This document shows, one piece after another, positions 9,180-64,000 of a stretch of DNA of 64,000 nt. The position numbers and the translations under genes were made by a program. The notes beneath the pieces were generated by a model that saw nothing but the letters and a program-made list of their open reading frames with translations, made no database searches and was not told where the DNA came from. This DNA comes from an uncultured Cytophagales bacterium (GTDB lineage Bacteria; Bacteroidota; Bacteroidia; Cytophagales; Cyclobacteriaceae), in the NCBI GenBank assembly GCA_964514385.1, contig CAZEQJ010000011.1, positions 14,295-78,294 on the forward strand, read 5' to 3'. Numbering within the stretch: the first letter of the stretch is position 1; the number at the start of each line of letters is the position of its first letter.

Positions 9180-10184
9180 TTACAGGTTCATAAATGCAGG
9201 ACAGGGAAGCACTTTATCCTTCTTTTTTACCCTGTGCGATTCGGGTAATTTAAGGTTGTACTGAAGACTTAATTCATGAGCTCCACCTGAGGCAACACTT
9301 AAGCGTGAGATGGTAAAGTCGAAGCTGTAACCAAAGTCAATATCCAACCAGTGTACCCCGAAAACAAATACTATCGCATCACGACTGAATTCTTCATTAA
9401 AGTCTGTCTTGAAAATCGGAGCTCCCCGAAACCAAAGTCCACAGGTGATAGGCTCATAAAGAAAATGAACACCGACATCAAGCTGTGAGAAATTGCCCTG
9501 CTGCTGATATACGAAAGAGGGCGCAAGTGAAGAAATGACATCTTTTTCACGAATTCCGCGGTAAAGCGGAATACGGGTACCGCCGTGGATGGAAAATTTG
9601 GCAGGCAGCCTGCTTTCAACGGTAAGCAGCGACTGATTGGGCTGATTAAGGTGCCAGCCGGAAATACCAAGCCAGTATTTTTTGCTGTAAATAACTATCC
9701 CCGTGGCAATGTCTATCCATTGTGATGTGCGCAAAGCCCTGGATGCAGGGTCGTCTGTACCCCCGTTCCGGCCCAGCTGATCACCAAAAATCGCCTTATT
9801 GATATCAAGTCCACGACTTCCGACGCCAAAATACAATCCCGGGCTGAATACGATTTTCTGGTTGAGCTGCAACTTATAAGAGTATAACAGCCCTCCCTGT
9901 GTAGTAGTCTGTCCGGCTGACCCTGCCTGATCAGCATTGAGCAAGATACCTAAACCGCTGCGGATATCCTCTAAATTGTAGTCATAGGAAAAAGCATAGG
10001 TATTGAATGCCCGTGGCAGACTGGGCCACTGCAGACGCATATTGGCAATGAAACGGTGATTCTCCGTTGCTCCGGCAAAACCGGGATTGAGGTAAAGAGG
10101 GGCCGCATAATACTGAGAGAAATGCGGATCCTGTGCCAGGCAGGCGAAAGATATAAAACACAAACCTACTAATTTCTTTATCAT
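9180..10184 (-). CDS. PorP/SprF-family type IX secretion outer-membrane protein
   Basis: Signal peptide, then the family signature QDPHFSQYYAAPLYLNPGFAG. ATGA overlap with the upstream cargo gene. Confidence 0.85.
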   Translation of the reverse strand: MIKKLVGLCFISFACLAQDPHFSQYYAAPLYLNPGFAGATENHRFIANMRLQWPSLPRAFNTYAFSYDYNLEDIRSGLGILLNADQAGSAGQTTTQGGLLYSYKLQLNQKIVFSPGLYFGVGSRGLDINKAIFGDQLGRNGGTDDPASRALRTSQWIDIATGIVIYSKKYWLGISGWHLNQPNQSLLTVESRLPAKFSIHGGTRIPLYRGIREKDVISSLAPSFVYQQQGNFSQLDVGVHFLYEPITCGLWFRGAPIFKTDFNEEFSRDAIVFVFGVHWLDIDFGYSFDFTISRLSVASGGAHELSLQYNLKLPESHRVKKKDKVLPCPAFMNL

Positions 10185-20298: not shown

Positions 20299-20322
20299 GC
20301 CCGTCAAATGACGGGCTTTTTT
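20299..20322 (+). terminator. rho-independent terminator of trxA
   Basis: Stem GCCCGTC, loop AAAT, stem GACGGGC, followed by TTTTTT. Confidence 0.75.
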
Positions 20323-23122
20323 ATTTTCTCATAAAAGCAAACTGTATACTTTCCATGTCCGGACGCTCTGCACGTTCATTAAAGCGGAAAGGTATTGTGG
20401 GATTACGGATTTCTTCTACCAACCGTATCAACTCTTTTTCAAATAATGGAATATAAGGTTTTGCATCCACTATCGGTTGTTTATTGATCATAATTCTATA
20501 GTCAAAATCTTTTTTGAATAACTCCTTGCTGATAAAAAGACCCGGCAATAGTTTCATTTGATTTTCGGGGTGATTGCGCTGGTATAAAAAAGCATAGGCC
20601 AATGTCTGCAAAGCGGCTTTATTGCGTTTTTCGATCGGAATAAATAGATCTGCAAGTTCACCCCTAACATCACGTTTATCCCCTCCGGTTTTATAGTCAA
20701 TTAACCTTATCACATCACCAACCTGATCCACACGGTCGATATTTCCTTTAAACCGGAAGGCAAAACCATCGGTTGTAGCAAGATCAACATTATATCTGGC
20801 CTCATTGGATATAATTTTTAGCGGAAGGGCATTGAAATCAAGATCTACGATACGATTAACAAAGTTTTCTATCACTGATTTTACTACCAGATGGTGCCCC
20901 TCGTATTCAAAGCTGCTACTTTTACGCTCATTTTTCTTGAAATAATCACGAAATGCCAGCTTTATTGCTCCGCTGACACTCCCCCTGATCTGCAGCAGTT
21001 GATTTTGCTGAAGGGTCTGTCCTTCAAAATACTGGTAGAGGTATTCAATAGATTTATGCAACAATGAACCAAAATGCCGCGCATCGATGATACGGTTTTT
21101 GTTCTCAGGTGTATTGATGCGCATTACAGACTGCAAAAAAAAGGTGATGGGGTCATCAAGGTAATTATTGAGCGCTGTTGGGCTTATGCCTTCCTGTAAA
21201 AACCTGTCGATCTGATGCAGTACATAGTCCGATTTCTCGATTTCATTCAGAGGGTTTTGGTTCACTTTCACATCACTGCTGATGGTATGACGACGCACGG
21301 GTAACCCAGACTCAATCTCAAGCTGCAACAGAAACCGGCTTTGTTCACCGTCGCGAATATCGTCTGACCCCGTTTTATAAAAAAGATGCAAATGCTGCGA
21401 CCGCTGAAGAAGACGATAAAACAGGTAGGCAAAAATACTATCCTGCTGATCTGTTGTAGGCAGGTTGAATGCTTTTCGTACGCTAAACGGAATGTAGGAA
21501 GAGCTATTCTCAACAGATGGAAAGACCCCTTCATTGAGCCCCATGAAAAACACATACTGAAAATCGAGGTTACGTGTTTCGAAGACACCCATCACCTGCA
21601 AACCTTCCAGCGGCTCACCGCTAAATGGTATCCGCATTTCATTCGCAAGCTGCCTGAACAGCTGCCTGAAAAAGGGCACATCGACCTGAATACTATTTTC
21701 CTTCAGCAACTGACTCAACCGCCCAAGGTGAGCAGTAAGGTGACTGAGATACTCTTTCTCCAACAGAAAATGTTCCTGCTGTTCATACCAATCGTAAATA
21801 ATCTGAATGACGTCTTTTAAATAATCCAGTATGCTGCCATCCGGTATTTGCCGGAATATACGCGCACAAAGTGGGGATATATCAGCAATCTGATGAAGAT
21901 GAAAATAGAGATCGTCTTGCTGTATAAGTTGCCGGATTTCCTTTTTCTTATCACCATCATGGCAGTTGAGAATAATCTCAGTACCAAGGATAATGCGTAC
22001 TATATCGCGGTATACCTTCTGATCATTCCGCATATACTTTTCCTGTAAGAGAAGTATATTTTCTGAAAGGCTGTAAACCGGTGTATCCCGGATAGGAAAT
22101 CCCATCGTTACATTGAGTCTGGAAAGGTTTTCCGGAAGGCTATTCAACACCGGGAAAAGCAGATTTTCATCAGGCAGCACAATGGCAATTTGTTCCGGCT
22201 TTACATCCTGACTGAGCAGTTCACCAATCTTAATACCGATCATCTTCACCTGATCTGTAATGGTGCTGGCAGCATATATGTCAAGCTGCTTCTCCTTTAC
22301 TATATTTTCAGGGAAATGCTCCGGAAAGGTTTTTTGAAAAACCCGGTCTTTCATGTACCCTCTGAAAAACCGTCCGGCCTCCTGCCTTTCATCTTCCATG
22401 TAATAATGATCCAGATCCCAGTAAATACGTGCACCGTATTCATCGGCCAGCACCCTGATCAATCGGCTTTCCGTTACCTGTAGCGCATTGAACCCGACAA
22501 ATACCATTGTTTTGTTAGAATACAGCTCCCGGAACTTTTCCTTTTCCACCACCTCACGATATACCATGCCCGGATAGGCCATACCACTTTTCCTCAGCGA
22601 TGCCTTATATTCGCTGTATATGGGATAGAGCTTTTCCCATGTGATCATAAACTTATCATCACTGGATTTATGTAGGGCATTCGTCCAGAAATTTCTTAAA
22701 AAAGCGCGTTGTGACTCGGTAAGGAAATCAAAAAGGGAATCAATTTCCTTCAGGTTACGGACCACACGGAAAAGATGATTTGCATTCACCAGGTTCTTGT
22801 CGATGGTATCGAAATCAGAAACCAGCATATTGCCCCAGTAGAAGAATTCATGAAAAGGCTCATTGGTCGGGATATGGCGACGATATATCTGAAAGAGCTC
22901 GAATACAAGCGTTATGTTATCAGCATAAATCAGGTCATTACAGGCCTGAAATAAATCCTCGATGGTAATGCATTGCGGTGCCCATACAGGCTGGTTTGTT
23001 ACCTGCGACAGGTATTTATTAAAAAAAAGTGAAGCCCTTCGGTTCGGGAATACAACTACCACATCTTCCGGTTGATGATGCTTCAATAAGTCAGCTGCAA
23101 CTTGTTTTAAGAAGGGCATCAT
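20321..23122 (-). CDS. PD-(D/E)XK nuclease subunit, AddB-like
   Basis: C-terminal nuclease motif GNIDRVD...RLIDYKTG. Overlap-coupled (ATGATG/TGA) to the upstream UvrD-type helicase-nuclease. Confidence 0.7.
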   Translation of the reverse strand: MMPFLKQVAADLLKHHQPEDVVVVFPNRRASLFFNKYLSQVTNQPVWAPQCITIEDLFQACNDLIYADNITLVFELFQIYRRHIPTNEPFHEFFYWGNMLVSDFDTIDKNLVNANHLFRVVRNLKEIDSLFDFLTESQRAFLRNFWTNALHKSSDDKFMITWEKLYPIYSEYKASLRKSGMAYPGMVYREVVEKEKFRELYSNKTMVFVGFNALQVTESRLIRVLADEYGARIYWDLDHYYMEDERQEAGRFFRGYMKDRVFQKTFPEHFPENIVKEKQLDIYAASTITDQVKMIGIKIGELLSQDVKPEQIAIVLPDENLLFPVLNSLPENLSRLNVTMGFPIRDTPVYSLSENILLLQEKYMRNDQKVYRDIVRIILGTEIILNCHDGDKKKEIRQLIQQDDLYFHLHQIADISPLCARIFRQIPDGSILDYLKDVIQIIYDWYEQQEHFLLEKEYLSHLTAHLGRLSQLLKENSIQVDVPFFRQLFRQLANEMRIPFSGEPLEGLQVMGVFETRNLDFQYVFFMGLNEGVFPSVENSSSYIPFSVRKAFNLPTTDQQDSIFAYLFYRLLQRSQHLHLFYKTGSDDIRDGEQSRFLLQLEIESGLPVRRHTISSDVKVNQNPLNEIEKSDYVLHQIDRFLQEGISPTALNNYLDDPITFFLQSVMRINTPENKNRIIDARHFGSLLHKSIEYLYQYFEGQTLQQNQLLQIRGSVSGAIKLAFRDYFKKNERKSSSFEYEGHHLVVKSVIENFVNRIVDLDFNALPLKIISNEARYNVDLATTDGFAFRFKGNIDRVDQVGDVIRLIDYKTGGDKRDVRGELADLFIPIEKRNKAALQTLAYAFLYQRNHPENQMKLLPGLFISKELFKKDFDYRIMINKQPIVDAKPYIPLFEKELIRLVEEIRNPTIPFRFNERAERPDMESIQFAFMRK

Positions 23123-26100
23123 AATACATTCACTATTTTTGATTCAAGGGCATAAATCAGGTACCCCTCTACCTTTTTTTGTGGGTACATTTCACTCATA
23201 AACCGCATATACTGTCGTATCTGATGATCATCTTCTTTTTTTGGATAGCCAGTTTTGTAATCAATTACAACCATCTGCGTTTTGGAAGCCACTACCCTGT
23301 CGAGCCGCAGCTGGTTTCCGTCAGGCAACAACAAAGCCTGTTCGGTATAAACATCCCATTCGGTTGAAAACCATTGTCGCACTTCACTGTCTTTGGTTAT
23401 GAAGTCGAAGAATGCAATGAGCTGATTTTTTTCATCATGTGTCAGGCTACCATCAGTATCCAGTTTTACCTTTACTTTTGGGATATCATCAAGTGTGCGC
23501 ACGATTGCCATATACTGATGGAAACGGGTGCCGAATAGAGCTGCAGCGGAAGAATCATCACTGAGTTTCATAATATTTCTCCGTATTGTGATCTTGTTAT
23601 TCCATCTGAAATATGGGAACTCTGTATGTTTAAGCAGGGATAGCGATGACTTTGACGCTCTGGCAGGTGGAGTCAATTCTCCATAACACCATCTGAAATG
23701 AGGGCTGTCAATCACAAAATCACCAAAATCAGCCTTTTCCACTACAGTACGGACTTCAGTTGCTATGTTATTTTTATCTTCTCTGCCATGCACGATAAGG
23801 GCATTTGCTGCCCTTGTAAAGGCGACATATAAAAGGTTAAGGTTATCAAGGTATGCCTTATTTTTTTCTGATCTGTATTCTTCAGCATAGACCGTTTTGT
23901 CCATTCCGGATGTGTACATAAGGGGAAAAAGACCCTTTTCATCGGGTAAAAACTTTTGTATTTCTACCCACATCCATTCCTTATTGGAGCTGTGATCCGT
24001 TGACCAGCTCACTTCAGGAATAATGACGGCCGGAAACTCAAGACCTTTGGCCTTATGTATGGTCATGACCCGGATAGCTTCTTCATCTTCGGGAATATCG
24101 ATGGCTTTGGATTTTCCAATAGTTTCCCACCATTGTAAAAAATTATATAAGTCAGACCCCTGTCGTACCATAAATTTCCATACCTCATCCATGAATGCTG
24201 CAAGATAATTATGTTCGCCCGTCAGGCTGGATATGTTGAAGGCATCTGCTATCCTTTCTGCCAGGTCATACAATGGCAGCTGCTTCCACTCCCTGACATG
24301 CGTAAAAAAACCTGAAGGTAAAAATGGGCCCAGGCTATCCTCAGATGAACGACCGTAAAGTGCCTTCACAAATGTCGTTAGCTTTTTGCCTCTGACGGAT
24401 GTCTGGTAGTCATAAATAATATTAGCCATCGAGAATTTGTCCCTGGGATCGGCCATATATCGGATCACATTGACAATGAGGCGCACCGAAACCGCCTGCG
24501 CGAGCATAAGTGCCACGTTGCTGACAACACGGTATTTTTCGGATTCCGCATTCTCCATCCTGTTCCTTTTATCCAGGATGATACGTGCCAATGCAGCTGC
24601 TTCATTGTTATTGCGTACAAGAAAGCAGATATCTGAAGGACTGAAGCCACGGTCAAATAACCTTTCCAGATCACCTAACACTATGTCTTCCAGGCTTTTC
24701 TCAGTATCCTTAGGGTATAGTGAGATGTCTACATAACCGGCATTCAGATCCTTTTTTGACTGCTGGGTGACATCAGCATAGGTGGCATTTAGTATCTCAT
24801 CTTCCATTTTATTCACCAGGGTCCTGAAAAAGAAATTGTTGAACTCCACCACTCTGCCGTCGCTGCGCCAGTTTGCAGACAGGATTTTTTCATTTACCTG
24901 GCCTAAAAACGACCGGGGCACCTTATCCACCATCAGTTCAGCATCTCCTCCCCTCCATCGGTATATAGCCTGCTTAGGATCTCCAACAATGAGGCTGGCA
25001 TAGCCACTGTCGACACTTTCGCGTATAAGCGGGAAGAAGTTTTGCCATTGCATGGTACTGGTGTCCTGAAATTCATCCAGCAGATAATGGTTGTACCGGG
25101 TGCCAATTTTTTCAAGAATAAAGGGCGTCTCCTCATTATTGATGATTTTGTGGAGAAATACATTAAAATCAGATATCAACAGCACTTCGTTTTCGCTCCG
25201 GTAATGCGCAATTTCCTGTTTAAGGGCACCGAATAATCCATAGGAATATAAATGTTTACGCATTTCAATCGCTGTTGCATACGCCTCGTTGTTTTCCTGA
25301 TAATAGCTTACAAGATCATTCAGCAATTCGTACAGGCCGTTGTCGCGTGCAGCTGCGATATCTTCCTTACGTTTCGTAGTGGTACCGACCCATTTATCCC
25401 GATCATCGACCGCCTCTTGAAGCCTTTTGCCAATTTCCTTGCTGTAATCGCCTTTTAGGGAGATGGCAGACTGCATAAATCCTTTTTCTTTATGAGGGAA
25501 GTCTTCAGCATGCAAGCCAAAGTCAGCCAGCTTACGGATTAGCTTATTGCAGCGGTCGTCGATGGATTTTCTGAATATTGAGATCTTATCATCAAGCTTT
25601 GCCCTGATCTGTTCATAATTAAGCTCATTGCCTTCCACATTATCTGCCCTGAAATAGGCTTCATCGAATAGCTCATTGGATAGATTTTCAAGTTCATTAC
25701 GAATATCCCAACCTCTTCCCTCCTGTATTCTTTCAGTTGCATGTGCTATCATCCATTTCAGTATATCCTGATCCTTGTTCAGCTTATCGATCAGGTTTTC
25801 TATGATGGATTTCAACACCAGATTCTGGTCAATTTCGATACTATGGTTACCAAAGAGGTCAATTTCCCGGGCAAAAGATCTTATAATTTTGTAGAAGAAG
25901 CTGTCAATGGTGGTAATAGAAAAATAGGAATAATCGTGAAGCAGATTATTCATCAGGTTATTTGCACGGCGTCTTATCTCCGGTTCATTTACAGAGAGTT
26001 TGTCACAAAGAAGCGAAAGGTATGCACTCTCCTCTCCTTCAGCCAGCTGGTGAAGAGCTTTAAGCACCCGTGATTTCATCTCATGGGTAGCCTTATGCGT

Positions 26101-26241
26101 AAAGGTGACTGCAAGTGTTTGTTTCCAGTTTACTTCATCAGAAAGGCTGAGCAACAGGTAATGAAATACCAGTGAAAAGGTTTTGCCTGATCCGGCGGAG
26201 GACCGATAAAGCGTTAAGCCGTTTTCCATATTAGTGGTCAA
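23119..26241 (-). CDS. UvrD/Rep-type helicase with a C-terminal PD-(D/E)XK nuclease, AddA-like
   Basis: Walker A SAGSGKTFSL, motif II DEFQDTS, and C-terminal LDRVV...VIDYKTG. Confidence 0.85.
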   Translation of the reverse strand: MTTNMENGLTLYRSSAGSGKTFSLVFHYLLLSLSDEVNWKQTLAVTFTHKATHEMKSRVLKALHQLAEGEESAYLSLLCDKLSVNEPEIRRRANNLMNNLLHDYSYFSITTIDSFFYKIIRSFAREIDLFGNHSIEIDQNLVLKSIIENLIDKLNKDQDILKWMIAHATERIQEGRGWDIRNELENLSNELFDEAYFRADNVEGNELNYEQIRAKLDDKISIFRKSIDDRCNKLIRKLADFGLHAEDFPHKEKGFMQSAISLKGDYSKEIGKRLQEAVDDRDKWVGTTTKRKEDIAAARDNGLYELLNDLVSYYQENNEAYATAIEMRKHLYSYGLFGALKQEIAHYRSENEVLLISDFNVFLHKIINNEETPFILEKIGTRYNHYLLDEFQDTSTMQWQNFFPLIRESVDSGYASLIVGDPKQAIYRWRGGDAELMVDKVPRSFLGQVNEKILSANWRSDGRVVEFNNFFFRTLVNKMEDEILNATYADVTQQSKKDLNAGYVDISLYPKDTEKSLEDIVLGDLERLFDRGFSPSDICFLVRNNNEAAALARIILDKRNRMENAESEKYRVVSNVALMLAQAVSVRLIVNVIRYMADPRDKFSMANIIYDYQTSVRGKKLTTFVKALYGRSSEDSLGPFLPSGFFTHVREWKQLPLYDLAERIADAFNISSLTGEHNYLAAFMDEVWKFMVRQGSDLYNFLQWWETIGKSKAIDIPEDEEAIRVMTIHKAKGLEFPAVIIPEVSWSTDHSSNKEWMWVEIQKFLPDEKGLFPLMYTSGMDKTVYAEEYRSEKNKAYLDNLNLLYVAFTRAANALIVHGREDKNNIATEVRTVVEKADFGDFVIDSPHFRWCYGELTPPARASKSSLSLLKHTEFPYFRWNNKITIRRNIMKLSDDSSAAALFGTRFHQYMAIVRTLDDIPKVKVKLDTDGSLTHDEKNQLIAFFDFITKDSEVRQWFSTEWDVYTEQALLLPDGNQLRLDRVVASKTQMVVIDYKTGYPKKEDDHQIRQYMRFMSEMYPQKKVEGYLIYALESKIVNVL

Positions 26242-26891: not shown

Positions 26892-29800
26892 TCAGGCTTC
26901 TATACCCTGATAGGACCGTAATATATCGACCACCTTATCTGATTCTTCGATATACCGGTCAAGCATTTTTTCGAGATTCTTTTTATTGCTGGTAGCATTC
27001 ATTTCCATGTCCAGGCATACATCTGCAAGTTCTTTAAAACCCAAAGCCAGCGCGCTGCCTTTTATTTTATGTGCCTGTGCTTTTATGGCCTGATGCTCAT
27101 TGTTATGGATGGCTTCACCCAAGAGGGTTTTGCCTTGTATAAACATCTTCTCTGATATAGCCAGCAAATGTCTTAGAGCATCTGTATCGCCATTTACAAG
27201 TTGGTTTAATTCGTCAATTTTATTGTTTGCCTGATCCTCAATCTCAGTTCTGACTATTTCAGCGGAGGTGATCTTATCTGTCCACCTGATCAGGGTCTTC
27301 TGAAAATCATCCTGTTTGATTGGCTTTGACATATAATCATCCATGCCTGCATTCAATGCTTTTTCCCTGTCCCCTTCCAGTGCTCCGGCGGTAAGGGCAA
27401 TGATAATGGTATCTTTACCTTCCTCAAGTTTTCTTACCTGCCTGGCCAGCTCATAGCCGTTCATTTCAGGCATCTGAATATCGGTAAGTACAATATCAGG
27501 TTGTAACGCCTTGAATTTTTGCAGGGCTGACTTTCCATTGGTAGCTTCATATACCATAAAAGGACCTTTCATTCGTTCGAAAAATGACCTTACCAACACC
27601 ATATTCAGCTCATTATCCTCTGCTACCAGTACCTTTAACTGTTTATCGGTTTTGAGTACAGCTTCAGTTGATTCTTCTTCTATTTTTACCTTTTTTGTAT
27701 CAATAGTGGAATCCTTTATTTTACTCAATGCCTTGAGGAATGACTCAAACTGAACAGGTTTTACTAAAGCGAGGTCAATTTTCAGGTTATCCACCTTTCG
27801 CTTATATTCTTCGCTGCTGGAGGAACTGCTGAGAATAACTTTATATATTTTCTTACCCCAGCTTCCGGTAAGCTGGTTTATTTTATCCATGGTTTCAAAC
27901 CCATCCATTACCGGCATATGAAGATCCATAATGATAAGATCCACGTCCTCATCTCCTGATAATATATCAAGTGCACGAAATCCGTTTGTCGCTGATATCG
28001 TCTTGAGGCCGGCTATTTTAAGCATATCTTCAAGTAGCCTGAGATTGGTCTCATTATCGTCTACAATCATTACCTTTTCAAAGCCAAGGTCAACGATTGC
28101 ATCACCCTGATCCTCATAGCTGCAATCCACATCAATATCAAAATAGAACGTGCTGCCTTTGCCGAGTGTACTCTTTAAGCTCAGCTGGCTATCCATCATA
28201 CTCAGCAGCTTGTTGGAGATGGTAAGTCCAAGTCCGGTACCTCCAAACTGACGCGTTGTCGATGAATCTTCCTGTGTAAATGCTTCGAATATTTTTTCTT
28301 GTTTTTCCTTTGCGATACCTATACCTGTATCCCTTACAAGAAAACGTAATTTCACCCTGTCATCTGAAAGCTTATCCAATACCTTAACCTGAAATTCCAC
28401 CTCTCCTTTTCTGGTAAACTTGATGGCATTACTCAGCAGGTTGATACATACCTGCCGCAGACGTAATGGATCAATATTGATATAGCGGGGCAAATCCATG
28501 GGGAGATTCAGGATAAGTTCAAGCTGCTTCTGATGTGCCTGGTATTTGGTGATCTCCGCAATCTCAGCGCCGAGTGACGGCAGGTCGGTCATTTCAGGCG
28601 CAAGCTCCAGCTTACCGGCTTCAATTTTGGAGAAATCAAGTATATCGTTGATAAGGCCAAGCAAAGTTCCTGCGGAGCTGTTGACCGTCTTCATGTACTC
28701 CTGCTGGGTGCCATCCAGTGGTGTTTTCATCAACAGGTCAGTAAAGCCGATAATACCGTTGAGCGGAGTACGTATCTCATGGCTCATGTTTGCCAGAAAC
28801 TCCGATTTAAAACGGCTGGCCTCCTCTGCCTTTTCCTTTTCTACTTCCAACAGATGCTGACTTTTAATCTCTTCAGTGACATCGGTCAGGGTGCCGAACC
28901 AGATGAATTCCCCGGAATTTTCTAGCCATGGCTCTGATTTTAGTTCAAACCAAACCAGATTTTCCTGAAGCCGGTACCTGAAGCGGGCGCTGAAAGGTTG
29001 TATTTTGTTCAGGGCATTCGATATTGTTTCCTTTAATAAATCAATATCATCTTCATGGATATACTCGTAGATATTTCCTACACTGCCCAATACTTCCTCC
29101 TCCTGTTTTTCCAGCATCTGATAGAATACCGGACTTAAAAATATCAGCTCACCATGCTGGTTCATTTTGAAGATACCGACAGATACCAATGATAATATGC
29201 GGTTTAGCTCGGTCGATTTTTCTTCCAGCTTCTGGTTGGCCATTTTCTTTTCATGGATATCCTGAAATAATCCATGCAGGTATTTACATTTTCCATCTTC
29301 AAATTCGGGTATGCCTACTGCCCTGATCCACCGATAATTTCCTTTTGCTGTTTTAATCAGGGCTTCGAGGTCAAAATGCTTTCCATTTTGGATGGCGTTA
29401 TCTACTGCATTGGTGATTATCTCCTTGTATTTTCCCTGGTAGTAGCTGATACCTTTTTCAACATTAGTTTGATCAAAATAATCTACTTCATGGATCTCAC
29501 ATGTGATGGGGCTCCATTGTGTGGACATGTCGCTTAGGTTTACTTCCCACGTGCCGATACGCCCCAATTCATTGGTTTTAATGAATAAGTCGTTAAGACG
29601 CTCCAGTTTTTCGCGTTCTATGACAGATTCAGTGATGTCGTCGAGGTAACCATGCCATAATACGCCACCCGTGACTTTTTCCGGTTTGGAGATACCCGAA
29701 ATATGGCGTATTACACCATTTTTATTGATACGGTATTCCATGACCCAGTTGGTCAGTTCCTGATACGACTGCTGTATAGATTGCTGTACCTGTATCAGAT

Positions 29801-31193
29801 CTGCAGGTAAAATGGTTTCAAATATTGTCTCTGCGCGACTTTTGACATCCTCCTCTTTCACGCCGTGTAATTTTGCCAGCCCTTTATGCCCAAAAGGTAC
29901 TGCAATTGAGCCGTCATCCTTCATCATAAACTGGTAAACGGTGCCTGGCAGGTTTTCAATCATATTGGAAAGAAGGCGTTCATTTCTGGCACTCTCCATT
30001 TCAGAAAGCTTTCTATCCGTAATATCATCGAGATAGCCATAAAAAATTACACCATTTTCCACTCTTTCTGGCGTACCCACACTTAAAAGATAGCGTAATC
30101 CCCTCTTTTCGCTCAGGGATCGGAATTCCGATTTGAATAGGGTAAGATCCTGAAGGGATTTCTGAATGGCTTCATTTACAGACTGAAGGTCATCCGGATG
30201 GACGTTTGCCATTGACATCTGAGGGTCGTCTCTGATTTGCTGTTCCTCAAGACCATGTAGCTCAGCAATTCCTTTATGGCCAAACAGTATATCTGCTGTG
30301 CCGTCGTCATATAAAATATTCTGGTATACCGTACCTGGTAAGTTATTGATCAGGGTTGTGAGGATCTTTTCATTTCTTGTGGCACTTAATTCCTCTTCCT
30401 TCTGAGCCGAAATATCGATTATAGTGCCGAAAATATATTTTGATCTCCCCTCCTCGTCAAATTCAAATACTTTACCGCGCGCCAGTACCCATACCCAATG
30501 TCCATCTTTATGCTTCATACGGTGTGTACAGGTATACCGGTCTGTTTCGCCATTCACATGTGCATTCAACTGCTTTTCACATTTGCGCAAATCTTCCGGA
30601 TGCACTCGTTCCGCCCAGGTATTTTTAGAGAGTGGCTTAAGCTCCTCCAGTTTAAAGCCGATTATTTCTGCCCATATATGATTATAGTTAGCCTTACCCG
30701 AAATCAGATCCAGTTCCCAGGTTCCTGAGTCAGTACCTTCTACGAGATATCCGTATTTTTTAGATTTTGATGTAAGGTGATTATCGGTCTTGAGGTCCGT
30801 TATATCCTGGTAAACTCCTATCATACGGTACGGTATTCCTTCATTATTCCATATGATAATACATTGTGTTTTGACCCATTTATATATGCCGTTTTTATGT
30901 TTTAGCCTTTGTTCGAGTTGGAACCGATTGATACCTTCCTGCATAGATCTTTGACCCACCTCCTGAGCCTTATCCAGATCTTCCGGGTGTATAACCTCAC
31001 GCATAAAGGAGGATTCCGTATCTGCACTATAGCCCAGCCAACTCCAGATATTGGGGTTTACCCAGGCCTTTTCATGGTTTTCCAGATCCCATATCCAGGT
31101 GGCATTAATTCCGGAATCCAGCAAAAGGTCGAAGACCGAAGCATCATTTTGTATGATCTTGTATAATTCTTTTTTCAGATTGTTGGTATCCAT
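26892..31193 (-). CDS. soluble multi-PAS hybrid sensor histidine kinase (PAS x ~6, HisKA, HATPase, REC, REC, Hpt)
   Basis: H-box FLANMSHEIRTPL, G-boxes RDTGIGI and GGTGLGLTIS. Two receivers (IIMDLHMPVMDG, VLTDIQMPEMNG). Hpt motif HKIKGSALALG. No TM helix. Confidence 0.9.
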   Translation of the reverse strand: MDTNNLKKELYKIIQNDASVFDLLLDSGINATWIWDLENHEKAWVNPNIWSWLGYSADTESSFMREVIHPEDLDKAQEVGQRSMQEGINRFQLEQRLKHKNGIYKWVKTQCIIIWNNEGIPYRMIGVYQDITDLKTDNHLTSKSKKYGYLVEGTDSGTWELDLISGKANYNHIWAEIIGFKLEELKPLSKNTWAERVHPEDLRKCEKQLNAHVNGETDRYTCTHRMKHKDGHWVWVLARGKVFEFDEEGRSKYIFGTIIDISAQKEEELSATRNEKILTTLINNLPGTVYQNILYDDGTADILFGHKGIAELHGLEEQQIRDDPQMSMANVHPDDLQSVNEAIQKSLQDLTLFKSEFRSLSEKRGLRYLLSVGTPERVENGVIFYGYLDDITDRKLSEMESARNERLLSNMIENLPGTVYQFMMKDDGSIAVPFGHKGLAKLHGVKEEDVKSRAETIFETILPADLIQVQQSIQQSYQELTNWVMEYRINKNGVIRHISGISKPEKVTGGVLWHGYLDDITESVIEREKLERLNDLFIKTNELGRIGTWEVNLSDMSTQWSPITCEIHEVDYFDQTNVEKGISYYQGKYKEIITNAVDNAIQNGKHFDLEALIKTAKGNYRWIRAVGIPEFEDGKCKYLHGLFQDIHEKKMANQKLEEKSTELNRILSLVSVGIFKMNQHGELIFLSPVFYQMLEKQEEEVLGSVGNIYEYIHEDDIDLLKETISNALNKIQPFSARFRYRLQENLVWFELKSEPWLENSGEFIWFGTLTDVTEEIKSQHLLEVEKEKAEEASRFKSEFLANMSHEIRTPLNGIIGFTDLLMKTPLDGTQQEYMKTVNSSAGTLLGLINDILDFSKIEAGKLELAPEMTDLPSLGAEIAEITKYQAHQKQLELILNLPMDLPRYINIDPLRLRQVCINLLSNAIKFTRKGEVEFQVKVLDKLSDDRVKLRFLVRDTGIGIAKEKQEKIFEAFTQEDSSTTRQFGGTGLGLTISNKLLSMMDSQLSLKSTLGKGSTFYFDIDVDCSYEDQGDAIVDLGFEKVMIVDDNETNLRLLEDMLKIAGLKTISATNGFRALDILSGDEDVDLIIMDLHMPVMDGFETMDKINQLTGSWGKKIYKVILSSSSSSEEYKRKVDNLKIDLALVKPVQFESFLKALSKIKDSTIDTKKVKIEEESTEAVLKTDKQLKVLVAEDNELNMVLVRSFFERMKGPFMVYEATNGKSALQKFKALQPDIVLTDIQMPEMNGYELARQVRKLEEGKDTIIIALTAGALEGDREKALNAGMDDYMSKPIKQDDFQKTLIRWTDKITSAEIVRTEIEDQANNKIDELNQLVNGDTDALRHLLAISEKMFIQGKTLLGEAIHNNEHQAIKAQAHKIKGSALALGFKELADVCLDMEMNATSNKKNLEKMLDRYIEESDKVVDILRSYQGIEA

Positions 31194-59613: not shown

Positions 59614-60696
59614 TCATGTATTGAGCGCAGACTTGCGCACCGGGCGCAATATAAAGTCGCTGATAGATGACAGTGGCAGGATATGCTGGGCTGCATCGAG
59701 CTTCACAGCTTCTTTTGGCATACCATATACAATAGATGATTTTTCATCCTGAGCCACGGTAATAGCACCTGCTTCACGCATTTCAAGCAAGCCACGTGCC
59801 CCATCATCTCCCATACCTGTCATGATAATCCCGATAGCATTTTTACCAGCAAATTGTGCTGTGGAGCGAAAAAGAACATCCACTGAGGGGCGGTGACGGC
59901 TTACAAGCGGGCCATCTTTTACTTCCACATAATAGCGGGCGCCGCTTCTTTTCAGCAAGGTATGCTTATTGCCAGGTGCGATCAATACATGACCGCGAAT
60001 AACAGGATCACCGTTTTCTGCTTCCTTGACGTTGACATGACAGAGCTCATTTAGCCTGTTGGCAAAACTACGTGTGAAATTTTCCGGCATATGCTGCACG
60101 ATCACTATTCCCGGGCAATCCGGTGGCAGCGCCATCAAAACCTCACGAATAGCTTCAGTACCACCTGTAGAAGCCCCGAGTGCTACTACACGCTCCGTGG
60201 TACGGACCATGGCGTGATTGGCCGCTTTTTTTACAACCACATCGGCCGGAAGTTTTTTATCCGGCACCCAGCTGCTACGCTTTTTAGTAACATTTACCTT
60301 TGCCGCTGCCTTTACCGTATCACAAATACGGATTTTACTTTCCTCGAAAAACTCTTTGGTATGGAGTTCAGGTTTTTTAATTACCTCAACAGCACCAGAT
60401 TCCATTGCTTGAAGACCTGTTTCAGACGCCTTCTCGGTGAGGCTGCTGATCACCACGACAGGAATAGGACGTTGTTGAATGATTTTTTTAAGAAAGGTAA
60501 TGCCATCCATCCTGGGCATTTCAATATCGAGGGTAATGACATCTGGTACCTCTTTAGCAATATAACGGGCTGCCATATAGGGATCCGCAGCCTTACCTAT
60601 CACCTCGATTTCAGGATCCGCATCCAATATTCTCGTGAGAGCTGCTCTCACTACGGCAGAGTCATCGACTATTAAAACACGAATCCGATTTTTCAT
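59614..60696 (-). CDS. cheB: protein-glutamate methylesterase/response regulator CheB
   Basis: REC domain with LIVDDS and acceptor Asp ([12 protein letters not shown]). Esterase triad contexts GASTGG, VQHMP and GMGDDG. Confidence 0.93.
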
Positions 60697-61172
60697 ATTG
60701 ACTTTTTAACCATCCGCATATGTATCTCTCCGGTATGCGTGTAAAACCGAATGTTTCTACCCTGATGCCCTCCTGTATGCCTGGCCTTTATGGGTATCCC
60801 GTTCTCTGATAGCTTCTTTTCAGCCAGCACAATGTTTCGCTCACCAATGGTAAAACTGTTGACCGAAGATTTTAAACTTGCCGCACCGCCAAATATCTTG
60901 GCTATGATCCTTTTCGAACCGGCACCGGAGTGGATCATTTTTTCTATAAGCAGGTCGATAGCAATATCGCCATATTTAGGGCTTTCGAGGCCATTACCAT
61001 TCCACAGATCAAGCATATAGTGATTAATGCCACCAATCTGACTCACCGGATCGTAAAGGCACACGGCTACGCAGGATCCGAGAATGGTCGTCACTTCCAT
61101 AGGCTGTGCTGATACGATCAATGCAGATGGCATCAGGTAATGTTTTTTCAGTGAAAGTTCAGCCAATGCCAT
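60693..61172 (-). CDS. cheD: chemoreceptor glutamine deamidase CheD
   Basis: [11 protein letters not shown] catalytic-Cys context; 159 aa. Overlap-coupled to cheB. Confidence 0.88.
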
Positions 61173-62065
61173 TAAAATAATTCTACATCATTGAAAAGTT
61201 CTTCATTTGAAGCTTCTACCCGGTAGATCGCGCGGTCATCTTCATTCTGCAAAGGAAGTAATACTCCTGCCATAGTACCCTCCCCTTCCACACTGTTAAT
61301 TTCAATTGTACCTGAAAGCATGTCAACGAGAGCACTTACTATGCTCAATCCAAGGCCGTGACCCGGATAATTCTTGGTCGTACCTTCTTCACCCTGAACA
61401 AAGCGATCGAAAATCTGATCTCGCTTTTCATCCGGTATCCCTACTCCTGTATCTTTAATCAGAATGGATATATTATCCTCCAATATTCCAAGGTGCACTT
61501 CGATTTCACCACCTTCCTTATTGAACTTAAGGGCATTATCGATCAGATTTTCAATGATCATACGTGTTTTTTCAGTGTCCAGTATCAATGCCGCCTCCCG
61601 CTCTTCTATGGTGGAATAAATTCGGGTCGTTACTTTTTTTAATTCAAATTGAGAAGTCCTGTCACCTATGATTTCATGGATGATCGTGTGGAGATCCATT
61701 TTACTCAGCCGCAGCTCTGTCTGCCCGGCTTCAAGTTCGGCCGCATAGAAAATATTGGTAAGCTGAAAATTCATATTTTTCATTTCAGCATTAATGATAC
61801 CGGCAACCTCACGAACCTTATCCGCATCGGATATATTGCCGTTGCTGATATTTTGCGAAAGGCCCAACAGCGATGTCAGTGGGTTGACCAGCTCATTTCG
61901 GATATTGGAAAGAAACCTGGATTTCAACGATTCTGAAGCTCTGAGCTTTTTATTCATGTGCTCAAGCTCTGCCGTAAGTTTTCGCTCTGCATCCAGCAAC
62001 TTCCGCTGAAGGTCAAACCGGTTGCGGAGTTCTGTCAATAGCTGTTCATCTGTGATTTCCTTCAT
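61172..62065 (-). CDS. cytoplasmic class-I histidine-kinase-like protein (coiled coil, DHp, HATPase_c) lacking the H-box histidine
   Basis: The H-box position reads FLSNIRNELVNPL (Asn, codon AAT at 61895-61897, where SHELRTPL has His). N-box ENLIDNALKFN, G1 KDTGVGI and G2 GHGLGLS are intact. Confidence 0.85.
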   Translation of the reverse strand: MKEITDEQLLTELRNRFDLQRKLLDAERKLTAELEHMNKKLRASESLKSRFLSNIRNELVNPLTSLLGLSQNISNGNISDADKVREVAGIINAEMKNMNFQLTNIFYAAELEAGQTELRLSKMDLHTIIHEIIGDRTSQFELKKVTTRIYSTIEEREAALILDTEKTRMIIENLIDNALKFNKEGGEIEVHLGILEDNISILIKDTGVGIPDEKRDQIFDRFVQGEEGTTKNYPGHGLGLSIVSALVDMLSGTIEINSVEGEGTMAGVLLPLQNEDDRAIYRVEASNEELFNDVELF

Positions 62066-62071
62066 GATTCT

Positions 62072-62902
62072 TTATTTTTTAAATACTGTCGGCGCCACCT
62101 GCTGCACGGGTAGCTGCATATGATGAAGAGACTCGGAATGACCGATAAAGAGATATCCACCGGTTTTAAGCTGGCGGATAAGTTTGGCCAATACCTTTTT
62201 CTGTGTTTCCCTGTCAAAATAGATGATAACATTCCGGCAAAAAATGATATCAAATTTCGTATCCATATGGTAGTCATCATCCATGAAATTGAGCCTGCCA
62301 AACCGAACCCTGCTTCGGATTTTTTGATTCACCTTCACAAGGGCCTCTTCACGGTTTTTACTTCGCAGGAAATAGCGGGATTTTAATTCTGCTGACATGT
62401 CGCCCAGCTTTTTCTCTTCATAAATACCTCTGTTGGCTGTGCGCAACACTTCGGTGGAGAGGTCAGTTGCTGTAATGCGATAGTTTAGGTGTTCGTGGTT
62501 ACGGATATATTCCTCCATAACCATGGCCAATGTATAAGGCTCCTCGCCACTGCTGCATCCGGCGCTCCACATTTCCAGCTTTTTTCTGTCTGCAAGCAGC
62601 TCTGGAAGTACAGTGCCGGTCATAATGCTGTAATGTGCAGGTTCCCGATAAAAGTCGGTTTTGTTGGTAGTGACCACATCGATGAGTGAGGTAAATTCCT
62701 CAGGATGGATGACTTTCTTATTTTTGAATACCATATTGAGGTATTCATCCATCGTGTTCATCTCATTGACCTTCAGTCGCTTGGCCAGTCTCGCCTCAAG
62801 CAATACCTGCTTGGCTTCCGGTAACTGGATGCCGCAGGTATTGTATATCAGCGAGCTCAGCTCTGTGAACTGTTCCTTACTAAGCCTTTTTGTCAGGGTC
62901 AT
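62072..62902 (-). CDS. cheR: chemotaxis protein-glutamate O-methyltransferase CheR
   Basis: CheR N-terminal helical domain plus SAM fold (MWSAGCSSGEEPYTLAM, IFCRNVIIYFD). Confidence 0.92.
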   Translation of the reverse strand: MTLTKRLSKEQFTELSSLIYNTCGIQLPEAKQVLLEARLAKRLKVNEMNTMDEYLNMVFKNKKVIHPEEFTSLIDVVTTNKTDFYREPAHYSIMTGTVLPELLADRKKLEMWSAGCSSGEEPYTLAMVMEEYIRNHEHLNYRITATDLSTEVLRTANRGIYEEKKLGDMSAELKSRYFLRSKNREEALVKVNQKIRSRVRFGRLNFMDDDYHMDTKFDIIFCRNVIIYFDRETQKKVLAKLIRQLKTGGYLFIGHSESLHHMQLPVQQVAPTVFKK

Positions 62903-62911
62903 CTGATTACA

Positions 62912-64000
62912 CTAAAAACGCTCAAAGCCTGAATCACCATTATCATCGTCCATGATCAACTGAAATCCATTACTTTTATCCTTCGCATAATGTCCATTGG
63001 ACTTATGCGACTCTGCAGGGCGTGTTTCAGTATTTGCTGATTTTTTCACTTCTCTAAGTTGCATTTTCCGATGGCCGCTGCCATTATTGTCTACCTTGAA
63101 ATAGGCTATTGTACTTTTCAGTGAATCTGCCTGGCTGGCCAGTTCCTCAGAGCTGGTGGCCATTTCTTCAGAGCTGGCAGCATTTTGCTGTGTCACCATG
63201 TTGAGTTGCTGAATAGCCGTATTGACCTGATCGGCACCAGCATTTTGCTCAATACTTGCTGCGGTAATCTCCTGCACTAGCTTGGCTGTTTTCTGAATAT
63301 CCGGCACGATACTATCAAAAAGCTCGGCACTTCGAACTGCCACCTCGACACTACTCTTAGATACTTCATCGATTTCGGCTGCAGCAGCCTGGCTACGTTC
63401 GGCAAGCTTACGTACCTCAGCCGCTACTACGGCAAAGCCTTTGCCATGCTCGCCGGCACGAGCTGCTTCCACAGCTGCATTTAATGCCAGGATATTGGTC
63501 TGTCGGGCTATTTCGCCTATAATCGAAACCTTCTCTGCTATATCTTTCATAGAGGTAACAGTCTGCTTTACTGATTCGCTGCCATCAAGAATATCTTTGC
63601 TGGCCTTTTCAGCAATTTTCTCCGTCTGCTGCGCGTTTTCAGTATTTTGCTGAATGTTGGACGCCATCTCTTCCATAGAAGACGATACTTCCTCGGCTGA
63701 TGAGGCCTGCTGTGAAGCTCCCTGTGACACCTGCTGAGAGGCTGTACTAAGCTGCGAACTGGCTGCTGCGATATTATCAGCTCCGCTACGTACATCTGAT
63801 ACAATTTCCCGGATCTTATCTGCCATTCGTTTTAGTGTCTGGGCCAGCATGCCGATCTCGTCTTTCTGGTCTATCTCTACCGAAGCTGTCAGGTCACCTT
63901 TTTCGAGCGCTTCAGCAAATGAAACACCCTGACGTACAGGCCCTGTAATGGCACGGGTAATGATAAAGGCAAATGCTATACCTATAATGAGGGCAAAAAT
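62912..64000 (-). CDS. methyl-accepting chemotaxis protein, 5' end beyond the window
   Basis: Hairpin-tip signature [40 protein letters not shown]. The frame stays open upstream of the track's Met through a HAMP domain and a TM helix ([21 protein letters not shown]...) to position 64000. Confidence 0.92.

What the first reader, a model, noticed from the sequence alone, without database searches (positions are those of the whole stretch)
59614..64000. Che-like operon MCP-CheR-HK-CheD-CheB with a class-I kinase where CheA/CheW would be expected
Five minus-strand genes are packed with spacers of 9 and 6 nt and overlaps of 1 and 4 nt. They encode a transmembrane HAMP-MCP, CheR, a 297-aa HisKA-type kinase-like protein, CheD and CheB. 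Catalytic or family-signature motifs are recognisable in CheR, CheD and CheB, and CheB keeps its REC acceptor Asp. The rest of the window points to a T9SS, gliding-type Bacteroidota organism. No CheA or CheW is visible, although the operon may continue upstream past position 64000. The system could be an alternative-function chemosensory pathway. It could also be a methylation-tuned receptor coupled to a non-CheA kinase module, which to my knowledge has not been characterised.
Basis: partly seen in the sequence, partly recalled or inferred. Interest (0 to 1): 0.75.

Follow-up and report, generated by a model that had tools for sequence, protein, structure and literature searches.

The report
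His-less kinase-like partner of CheD
The five genes are the tail end of an ordinary CheA-type chemosensory operon cut off by the window edge, and the "kinase" in it belongs to a widespread, uncharacterised family of histidine-kinase look-alikes that lack the phosphorylatable histidine and always sit next to the receptor deamidase gene cheD.

Summary
MCP (cut at 64000), CheR, a 297-aa HisKA+HATPase protein, CheD and CheB lie on the minus strand with exactly the stated spacings.

The interpretation, a class-I kinase standing in for CheA/CheW, is not supported.

1. The kinase-like protein (HKL) has Asn57 where the phospho-accepting His should be. That Asn is present in all 120 best database relatives.
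2. In 19 of 21 related operons with enough upstream DNA, cheA-cheW lie directly upstream of the MCP. The window simply ends inside the MCP gene.
3. The receptor is class 34H with a C-terminal pentapeptide (GFERF). Together with CheD, this is the published signature of the F8 chemosensory class.

HKL is not a passenger gene either. About 450 species genomes encode a relative. In about 80 of 81 loci examined, cheD follows it immediately. In some Nitrospirota and Magnetococcales the pair stands alone.

HKL keeps the HisKA phosphatase motif (E-x-x-N) and all ATP-binding boxes. I infer that it is an auxiliary, CheD-partnered phosphatase or regulator, analogous to CheC. This is not shown.

I found no paper that describes the family.

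The parts
62912..64000 (-). 3' part of an MCP gene; the ORF is open to the window edge, with 362 aa visible. It contains the end of TM2 (about 63959-64000), HAMP (63806-63961), a class 34H signalling domain (MCPsignal, 63191-63640), many QQ/EE methylation or deamidation pairs, a roughly 50-aa linker and the C-terminal pentapeptide GFERF (62915-62929).
   Evidence: The alignment with E. coli Tar (36H) shows two symmetric 7-residue deletions, and GFERF aligns on NWETF.
62072..62902 (-). cheR, a receptor methyltransferase of 276 aa.
   Evidence: CheR_N and CheR match over the full length. The beta-subdomain loop has the same length as in pentapeptide-dependent E. coli CheR.
61172..62065 (-). HKL, a soluble His-less histidine-kinase-like protein of 297 aa. 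It has an N-terminal coiled-coil helix continuous with the DHp domain (61721-61930). Its H-box reads FLSNIRNELVNPL, with Asn57 at 61895-61897 in place of His. The E58-x-x-N61 motif is kept. The CA domain (61253-61708) has intact N, G1, F and G2 boxes. An acidic C-terminal tail ends in Phe (61175-61237).
60693..61172 (-). cheD, a receptor glutamine deamidase of 159 aa. Its start overlaps the HKL stop by 1 nt.
   Evidence: CheD Pfam hit 1e-26. Thr29, Cys34 and His51 are invariant. cheD follows HKL in about 80 of 81 loci.
59614..60696 (-). cheB, a REC plus methylesterase protein of 360 aa, and the last gene of the cluster. A GTP-type PEPCK gene follows after 117 nt.
   Evidence: NCBIfam CheB hit at 444 bits against a cutoff of 293.

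Best explanation
The locus is the promoter-distal part of an F8-like chemosensory operon, that is, one built around a 34H receptor with a pentapeptide. The window edge cuts it inside the MCP gene. The signalling kinase is almost certainly an ordinary CheA with CheW, encoded just upstream of the MCP beyond position 64000. That is the arrangement in related Bacteroidota: (STAS)-CheY-CheA-CheW-MCP-CheR-HKL-CheD-CheB.

The 297-aa protein is not a CheA substitute. It belongs to a conserved family of soluble DHp+CA proteins in which Asn replaces the phospho-acceptor His. The family forms an obligate two-gene module with CheD.

Most likely mechanism (inferred, not shown):
- HKL dimerises through its DHp domain and binds nucleotide in its intact CA domain.
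- It cannot autophosphorylate.
- It uses the retained HisKA phosphatase motif (N57-E58-x-x-N61) to dock and dephosphorylate a REC domain of the pathway, either CheY~P or CheB~P.
- It also interacts with CheD, coupling receptor deamidation and adaptation to the phosphorylation state. This would make it a functional analogue of CheC in the CheC-CheD pair.

How likely each step is:
- Not the receptor-coupled kinase: about 0.9.
- Conserved HKL-CheD module: about 0.95.
- CheA/CheW directly upstream in this genome: about 0.85.
- Phosphatase or REC-directed function: about 0.4.
For: 1. His to Asn.
- A profile alignment to solved HKs puts Asn57 exactly on the phospho-His of HK853 and 7z8n.
- Asn is present in 30 of 30 aligned members and in all 120 best hits.
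- It is present in 110 of 112 short members among the representatives of the 50% identity clusters, whereas long generic HKs in the same list keep His.

2. Retained motifs.
- E58, N61 and P62 are invariant, as are the N, G1, F and G2 boxes.
[quoted passage not shown] CheX uses ExxN (PMC3510030).
- ADP bound to the CA domain stimulates HisKA phosphatase activity (PMC7005713). This would explain why a protein that cannot autophosphorylate keeps its ATP site.

3. Structure.
- The AF2 model (pLDDT 81) is a canonical DHp+CA fold.
- The best Foldseek hits are HK853-RR468 complexes and the His-less DivL.

4. Genomic context.
- 452 genome loci encode relatives.
- cheD follows HKL immediately in about 80 of 81 loci, mostly with a gap of -4 to +15 nt.
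- The pair stands alone between dnaN and gyrB in Nitrospirota and alone in Magnetococcales.
- It appears as an extra HKL-cheD pair beside a complete che operon in Desulfuromonadales.

5. CheA and CheW.
- They lie directly upstream of the MCP in 19 of 21 CheR-HKL-CheD operons with enough upstream DNA.
- This includes Reichenbachiella and Bacteroidetes GWA2_31_9.

6. Chemosensory class.
- The receptor is 34H and carries a pentapeptide.
- CheD is present.
- This matches published F8 features (PMC11253619; PMC7184735; PMC9321776; Vibrionales preprint).

7. HKL distances correlate with those of CheR, CheD and CheB across 22 operons (r 0.89-0.93). HKL has therefore been co-inherited with the operon rather than recently inserted.

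8. A REC-HKL fusion exists (P0372).
Against: - The sequence upstream of 64000 could not be obtained. The source contig is not retrievable, so CheA/CheW in this genome are inferred from relatives.
- One lineage (L017, L083, L084) has unrelated genes upstream of the MCP.
- No phosphatase activity, CheD binding or REC binding has been shown for any family member.
- In HisKA kinases the His itself helps position the water for the phosphatase reaction (PMC7005713). Its loss could therefore weaken a phosphatase rather than dedicate the protein to that role.
- Flavobacteriales relatives also encode a weak CheC/CheX-like protein downstream. That makes a second phosphatase less obviously needed.
- The mirror-tree analysis gave no HKL-CheD signal beyond the shared operon history. 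The partial r was 0.37, against 0.49 for HKL-CheR.
- The F8 assignment was not tested with the MiST class HMMs.
Confidence: 0.6

Rival explanations
1. HKL is a nucleotide-dependent pseudokinase or scaffold that sequesters or releases CheD, or tethers it to the array, without acting on any REC domain. For example, it could act as an ATP/ADP-state sensor that gates receptor deamidation.
For: The link to cheD is obligate even where no che or REC gene is nearby. The ATP-binding boxes are invariant although the acceptor His is absent. The nearest structural analogues include the non-phosphorylating DivL and RetS.
Against: The invariant E58-x-x-N61 motif and the highly conserved DHp alpha-1 face are the REC-facing surface in HK853-RR468. 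A REC-HKL fusion exists, and REC genes lie next to HKL in Desulfuromonadales.
Confidence: 0.2
2. HKL is an atypical protein kinase that uses its intact CA domain to phosphorylate another residue or protein. Candidate targets are a STAS or SiaC-type partner-switch protein, CheD, or the receptor.
For: The ATP site is intact. There are weak HATPase_c_2 (SpoIIAB-like) hits. STAS, REC-PP2C and SiaC genes occur in many Bacteroidota clusters.
Against: The HKL-cheD pair occurs without any STAS, SiaC or PP2C neighbour in Nitrospirota and Magnetococcales. The fold is a full HisKA DHp+CA, not the DHp-less SpoIIAB type. Besides the H-box, the DHp has no conserved alternative acceptor residue beyond what generic HisKA domains show.
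Confidence: 0.1
3. One reading: this is a CheA/CheW-less system in which the methylation-tuned MCP signals through the class-I kinase to CheB.
For: No CheA or CheW is visible in the window. One related lineage lacks CheA/CheW directly upstream (L083 and L084).
Against: The acceptor His is absent. CheA-CheW lie upstream in 19 of 21 related operons. L085 carries the same HKL protein as L083 and does have CheA-CheW upstream. HKL has no CheW-like or receptor-binding domain.
Confidence: 0.04
4. HKL is a decaying two-component remnant or passenger gene with no role in the pathway.
For: The catalytic His is lost. HKL evolves fastest of the four proteins, with a mean p-distance of 0.52 against 0.37-0.42 for the others.
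Against: The family is conserved across at least four phyla, with about 35 invariant residues including all the ATP boxes. Synteny with cheD is fixed. The replacement residue is specifically Asn, not a random residue.
Confidence: 0.02

Closest known systems
F8-class chemosensory clusters and the related early F7 clusters (STAS-CheY-CheA-CheW-CheW-MCP-CheR-CheD-CheB)
   Same: The receptor is 34H, has two transmembrane segments plus HAMP, and carries a C-terminal pentapeptide. CheR, CheD and CheB run in the same order. In relatives, STAS, CheY, CheA and CheW lie upstream. The published descriptions are in PMC7184735, PMC11253619 and PMC9321776.
   Different: An extra HKL gene is inserted between cheR and cheD. 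The host is a non-flagellated, T9SS-type Bacteroidota. Relatives have PP2C/SiaC-type output genes. Class membership was not tested with MiST HMMs. [quoted passage not shown] I could not confirm that this is the same family.
CheC-CheD pair of Bacillus subtilis and Thermotoga maritima
   Same: An auxiliary protein is genetically coupled to CheD. In CheC, an ExxN-type catalytic motif dephosphorylates CheY~P (motif from PMC3510030; CheC-CheD biology from my own knowledge and the references).
   Different: HKL is not homologous to CheC, CheX or FliY. It has a HisKA+HATPase fold. No interaction or activity has been shown.
Bifunctional HisKA kinase/phosphatases (HK853, EnvZ, CrdS)
   Same: The fold is the same, DHp+CA. 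The H-box context is F-L-S-N-I-x-[H/N]-E-x-x-N-P. The ATP-lid boxes are present. Profile E-value is 1e-42 and Foldseek E-value is 6e-20.
   Different: The acceptor His is replaced by Asn in every member examined. There is no sensor or transmembrane domain. A conserved acidic C-terminal tail ends in Phe. cheD is an obligate neighbour.
His-less pseudo-histidine kinases (DivL, with Tyr at the His site, and RetS)
   Same: The HK fold is retained without canonical autophosphorylation. Both appear among the top structural and sequence matches.
   Different: The replacement residue is different (Asn), the partners are different, and there is no chemotaxis link in DivL or RetS. HKL keeps all its ATP-binding motifs.
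CheA3 of Rhodobacter sphaeroides (a kinase-derived CheY6~P phosphatase) and CheZ
   Same: The concept is the same: a kinase-derived or dedicated phosphatase in a Che pathway. Like the CheZ C-terminus, HKL has an acidic C-terminal peptide ending in hydrophobic-Phe. This comparison is from my own knowledge and is a lead only.
   Different: CheA3 is a class-II CheA fragment and CheZ is an unrelated helical bundle. Homology was not tested and is not expected.

Membership tests
Class-I (HisKA) autophosphorylating histidine kinase | HisKA-type DHp domain followed by an HATPase_c CA domain | tested here: met
   Pfam HisKA 3.5e-7 and HATPase_c 3e-26. PDB profile hits at 1e-42. AF2 model and Foldseek search.
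Class-I (HisKA) autophosphorylating histidine kinase | Phospho-accepting His in the H-box | tested here: not met
   Asn57 aligns on the His of HK853 and 7z8n. Asn is present in all 120 best relatives and in 110 of 112 cluster representatives.
Class-I (HisKA) autophosphorylating histidine kinase | N, G1, F and G2 nucleotide-binding boxes | tested here: met
   N173/N177, D205-x-G207-x-G209, R221-F222 and G235-H-G-L-G-L240 are invariant.
Class-I (HisKA) autophosphorylating histidine kinase | Autophosphorylation and phosphotransfer to a cognate response regulator | not testable with these tools
   This needs biochemistry.
CheA (class-II chemotaxis kinase) / CheW | Hpt (P1), H-kinase_dim (P3) and CheW-like (P5) domains | tested here: not met
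   None of these Pfam families hits the 297-aa protein. They do hit the CheA proteins of relatives.
F8 chemosensory class | Class 34H chemoreceptor encoded in the cluster | tested here: met
   Two symmetric 7-residue deletions relative to Tar (36H) flank the hairpin tip. The F8-34H link is from PMC9321776, PMC7184735 and PMC11253619.
F8 chemosensory class | Receptor C-terminal pentapeptide with a matching CheR | tested here: inconclusive
   GFERF aligns on NWETF. The CheR beta-subdomain loop has the same length as in E. coli CheR, but the contact residues are only partly conserved.
F8 chemosensory class | CheA, CheW, CheY, CheB, CheR and CheD in one cluster, with CheA classified as F8 by MiST HMMs | not testable with these tools
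   CheA, CheW and CheY are not in the window and the contig could not be extended. Class HMMs are not available. Relatives do have the full set.
HKL-CheD module (family defined here) | Soluble protein of about 300 aa with Asn at the His site, E-x-x-N-P, and an acidic C-terminal tail ending in Phe | tested here: met
   The window protein has N57-E-L-V-N61-P and ends ...NEELFNDVELF. 112 of the 120 relatives end in F.
HKL-CheD module (family defined here) | cheD immediately downstream on the same strand | tested here: met
   The overlap is 1 nt in the window. cheD follows HKL in about 80 of 81 loci.
CheC/CheX/FliY phosphatases | Homology to the CheC or CheX fold | tested here: not met
   HKL has no CheC or CheX Pfam hit. 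Only the ExxN motif is analogous.
CheD deamidase | CheD domain with conserved Thr, Cys and His catalytic residues | tested here: met
   Pfam hit 1e-26. T29, C34 and H51 are 100% conserved in 79 linked CheDs. Mapping them onto the T. maritima triad is from my own knowledge.
CheB methylesterase | REC domain with acceptor Asp plus a Ser-His-Asp esterase triad | tested here: met
   49% identity to E. coli CheB, with all motifs aligned. NCBIfam score above the cutoff.

The most novel reading that the evidence does not exclude
HKL-CheD is a previously unrecognised two-protein auxiliary module of chemosensory pathways. In this reading HKL is a HisKA kinase turned into a dedicated, nucleotide-dependent response-regulator phosphatase by a His-to-Asn change. 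That would make it a third evolutionary origin of chemotaxis phosphatases, after CheZ and CheC/CheX/FliY. It works obligately with the receptor deamidase CheD and is spread across Bacteroidota, Nitrospirota, Magnetococcales and Desulfuromonadales.
Probability: 0.35. Interest if true: 0.7.

Novelty: new variant of a known kind. Interest (0 to 1): 0.5.

Why it matters
The headline idea, receptors wired to a non-CheA kinase, would have been striking, but the evidence does not support it. This is an F8-like Che operon seen through a truncated window.

What remains is still useful. A conserved His-less kinase-like family is present in hundreds of species and always paired with CheD, and I could find no paper that describes it. 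How CheD is regulated is understood only where CheC is present. Many CheD-containing systems (the F7 and F8 classes) lack an obvious CheC partner. If HKL is that partner, or a new kind of CheY/CheB phosphatase, it would fill a gap in models of adaptation for these poorly studied systems.

It would also be a clean natural example of a bifunctional histidine kinase reduced to a single activity. And it warns annotators that 'sensor histidine kinase' is the wrong name for these genes.

Tried and rejected
1. Extending the contig. Exact-protein look-ups for HKL, its database copy P0001 and CheR found no record. CheB was found only on a 1.9-kb Logan contig that adds nothing upstream.

2. Recovering the full-length MCP. 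A homology search gave no 100% hit, and the 362-aa fragment is not in the collection. This is unexplained. The contig-end hypothesis could not be confirmed.

3. Mirror-tree and partial-correlation test for specific HKL-CheD co-evolution. All four operon proteins track the same history, with r from 0.84 to 0.93. The partial r for HKL-CheD (0.37) is no higher than for HKL-CheR (0.49). The test is uninformative.

4. Looking for a natural HKL-CheD fusion among the best 150 cluster representatives. None was found. The only fusion was a single REC-HKL protein.

5. Separating HKL-linked from unlinked CheDs by tree. My automatic labelling misassigned several linked copies, and the unlinked group was not cleanly resolved. 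I drew no conclusion beyond the conservation of the catalytic residues.

6. A tblastn search of annotated plasmids for named homologues found nothing.

7. Literature searches for a described CheD-associated, His-less or pseudo-kinase found nothing specific. The only traces were a figure legend listing 'K, histidine kinase' in Che gene orders (PMC9239204) and a remark about an 'isolated cheA adjacent to cheD' in Thiomicrospira crunogena (PMC2829493). The latter might be a misread HKL, but this is unverified.

8. I considered whether the HKL C-terminal tail is a CheR/CheB-binding pentapeptide and rejected the idea, because position -4 is not aromatic. Resemblances of the N-terminal LTDEQLLxEL motif to the FliM CheY-binding peptide, and of the tail to the CheZ C-terminus, are recalled from memory and were not tested.

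Full report
**1. Observation**

| Gene | Coordinates | Length |
|---|---|---|
| MCP | >64000..62912 | open at the window edge, 362 aa visible |
| CheR | 62902..62072 | 276 aa |
| Kinase-like protein (HKL) | 62065..61172 | 297 aa |
| CheD | 61172..60693 | 159 aa |
| CheB | 60696..59614 | 360 aa |

- The junctions are a 9-nt spacer, a 6-nt spacer, a 1-nt overlap and a 4-nt overlap.
- All Pfam domain assignments are strong.
- CheB is 49% identical to E. coli CheB, with the acceptor Asp and the esterase triad aligned.
- In CheD, Thr29, Cys34 and His51 are invariant among its relatives.
- A GTP-type PEPCK gene follows on the same strand after 117 nt. No convincing terminator was found there.
- The host is a Bacteroidota. 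A PKD/CHU_C type IX secretion (T9SS) substrate lies at 10181-14497. The PEPCK clusters at 90% identity or more with a Bacteroidota MAG protein. The best MCP relatives come from Bacteroidetes, Salinivirgaceae and Tenuifilaceae.

**2. The 'kinase' lacks its histidine**

- The H-box reads FLSNIRNELVNPL. A family profile aligned to solved kinases puts Asn57 exactly on the phospho-His of HK853 (FIANISHELRTPL) and of 7z8n.
- This is a family trait, not a sequencing error.

| Set examined | Asn at the His position |
|---|---|
| Aligned relatives | 30 of 30 |
| Best database hits | 120 of 120 |
| Short members (about 300 aa) among the best 150 representatives of 50%-identity clusters | 110 of 112 (one keeps His, one has Cys) |

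- The long generic kinases in that same list of representatives keep His.
- E58, N61 and P62 and all four nucleotide-binding boxes are invariant.
- The AF2 model (pLDDT 81) shows a long N-terminal helix running into a DHp hairpin, a normal CA domain and a low-confidence C-terminal helix.
- The best Foldseek matches are HK853-RR468 complexes and DivL.
- Members are soluble and about 300 aa long. They carry a conserved N-terminal motif (D6, L9, E12, R16) and an acidic tail, GNEFLFDxxExxxxF, that ends in Phe in 112 of 120.

**3. Context in other genomes**

A profile-guided scan of one genome per species found 452 loci that encode relatives. None is closer than 46% identity to the window protein, so this genome is not among the representatives. 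I labelled the genes around the best 80 loci, plus loci found by exact look-up. Two facts stand out.

(a) cheD follows HKL immediately.
- The script counted 77 of 81 loci.
- Two of the four apparent exceptions (L030, L074) turned out on inspection to have cheD, hidden by an ORF-overlap artefact.
- One exception (L077) is cut by the contig end. One (L064) was not inspected.
- Gaps are mostly -4 to +15 nt.
- In Nitrospirota the pair sits alone between dnaN and gyrB. In Magnetococcales it also stands alone.
- In Desulfuromonadales it accompanies a che operon that already has its own cheD.

(b) CheA and CheW lie upstream in Bacteroidota.
- The order there is (STAS)-REC-CheA-CheW-(CheW)-MCP(s)-CheR-HKL-CheD-CheB. 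It is often followed by REC, a weak CheC/CheX-like gene, REC-PP2C, DUF6272 and SiaC.
- Of 21 CheR-HKL-CheD operons with enough upstream DNA, 19 have CheA and CheW directly upstream of the MCP.
- The two exceptions (L017, L083) share one gene arrangement. A third contig carrying the same HKL protein as L083 does have CheA-CheW upstream (L085).

**4. What kind of Che system this is**

- Against E. coli Tar (36H), the window MCP has one 7-residue deletion in each arm of the hairpin. That makes it 34H.
- Its C-terminus, GFERF, aligns on the NWETF pentapeptide after a flexible linker.
- Three papers describe 34H receptors as the input of the F8 class (PMC9321776, PMC7184735, PMC11253619). The P. 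syringae paper (PMC11253619) adds a pentapeptide and a matching CheR. A Vibrionales preprint lists CheD as the F8 accessory protein.
- The early F7 order STAS-cheY-cheA-cheW-cheW-mcp-cheR-cheD-cheB (PMC7184735) is the Reichenbachiella order, minus HKL.
- I therefore call the window an F8-like cluster. This was not tested with class HMMs.

**5. Verdict on the interpretation**

The reading that a class-I kinase replaces CheA/CheW fails on three counts:
- HKL has no acceptor His.
- It has no receptor-coupling domain.
- CheA and CheW are present upstream in orthologous operons.

HKL is not a passenger gene either. Its pairwise distances track those of CheR, CheD and CheB across 22 operons (r 0.89-0.93). 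The absence of CheA and CheW from the window comes from where the window ends. I could not retrieve the rest of the 116,721-bp contig. Oddly, the full-length MCP is missing from the protein collection, although its neighbours are there.

**6. Mechanism (inferred)**

- HisKA kinases carry the motif H-E/D-x-x-T/N. [quoted passage not shown] The dedicated phosphatases CheX and CheZ use ExxN and DxxxQ respectively (PMC3510030).
- Nucleotide bound to the CA domain stimulates HisKA phosphatase activity (PMC7005713).
- HKL keeps E-x-x-N and the nucleotide site and loses only the His. That is the pattern expected for a kinase reduced to a REC-directed phosphatase or REC-binding protein.
- Its fixed pairing with cheD recalls CheC-CheD. 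A REC-HKL fusion and REC genes next to HKL in Desulfuromonadales fit this reading.
- Against it: the His normally helps the phosphatase reaction, no activity has been measured, and some clusters also encode a CheC/CheX-like protein.

**7. Novelty**

- The operon is a variant of a known class.
- I found no description of the HKL family itself in seven literature searches (and 37 for the F8 class).
- The only traces are a figure legend that lists a histidine-kinase gene in Che gene orders (PMC9239204) and an 'isolated cheA next to cheD' in Thiomicrospira (PMC2829493).
- Interest is moderate. The headline claim is wrong, but it points to an uncharacterised, widespread partner of CheD that can be tested directly.

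Noticed in passing
L090 8001-9379; L074 3568-4939: In magnetotactic Nitrospirota the HKL-cheD pair is inserted between dnaN and gyrB in the dnaA-dnaN-gyrB-gyrA origin-region cluster, far from other che genes.
   Followed up: partly
P0372 (413 aa), P0276 (309 aa), P0314 (298 aa): Three rare family variants turned up. P0372 is a REC domain fused to the N-terminus of HKL. P0276 keeps His at the H-box (NIKHEINNP). P0314 has Cys there.
   Followed up: partly
L083 12523-15857; similar in L002, L005, L015, L028, L065: Downstream of cheB, Flavobacteriales and Cytophagales relatives carry REC, a weak CheC/CheX-like protein of about 200 aa, REC-PP2C (SpoIIE), DUF6272 and SiaC. This looks like a SiaABC-like partner switch and is probably the pathway output. 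The window lacks these genes and has PEPCK after cheB instead.
   Followed up: partly
L092 16956-17306: In Bacteroidetes bacterium GWA2_31_9 a 116-aa 23S_rRNA_IVP-family gene sits between HKL and cheD. It is the only interruption of the pair that I saw.
   Followed up: no
window 62912-64000 and beyond: The full-length MCP of this contig is absent from the 15-billion-protein collection: there is no 100% hit and the fragment is not found. Yet CheR, HKL, CheD, CheB and PEPCK from the same 116,721-bp contig are all present. Possible causes are a pseudogene call, an assembly problem in a repeated MCP, or a contig break.
   Followed up: partly
window 26892-31193 (-): A large hybrid sensor kinase of 1433 aa, with four PAS domains, HisKA, HATPase, two REC domains and Hpt. 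Unlike HKL, it matches HisKA strongly (6e-23).
   Followed up: no
window 10181-14497 (-): A 1438-aa protein with PKD repeats and a CHU_C type IX secretion signal. This supports a Bacteroidota host with T9SS.
   Followed up: no
window 20321-26241 (-): Adjacent genes for a UvrD-like helicase (1040 aa) and a PD-(D/E)XK nuclease (933 aa), resembling an AddAB/RecBCD-type pair.
   Followed up: no
L001-L080 (one search list): Magnetotactic lineages are strikingly frequent among the best HKL-cheD loci: Magnetococcales and Ca. Magnetobacterium, Magnetominusculus, Magnetomicrobium and Magnetocorallium. This could reflect sampling bias or horizontal transfer among these bacteria.
   Followed up: no
PMC2829493: A 2010 survey reports an 'isolated cheA adjacent to a cheD gene' in Thiomicrospira crunogena. 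This could be an HKL misread as CheA through HATPase similarity.
   Followed up: no
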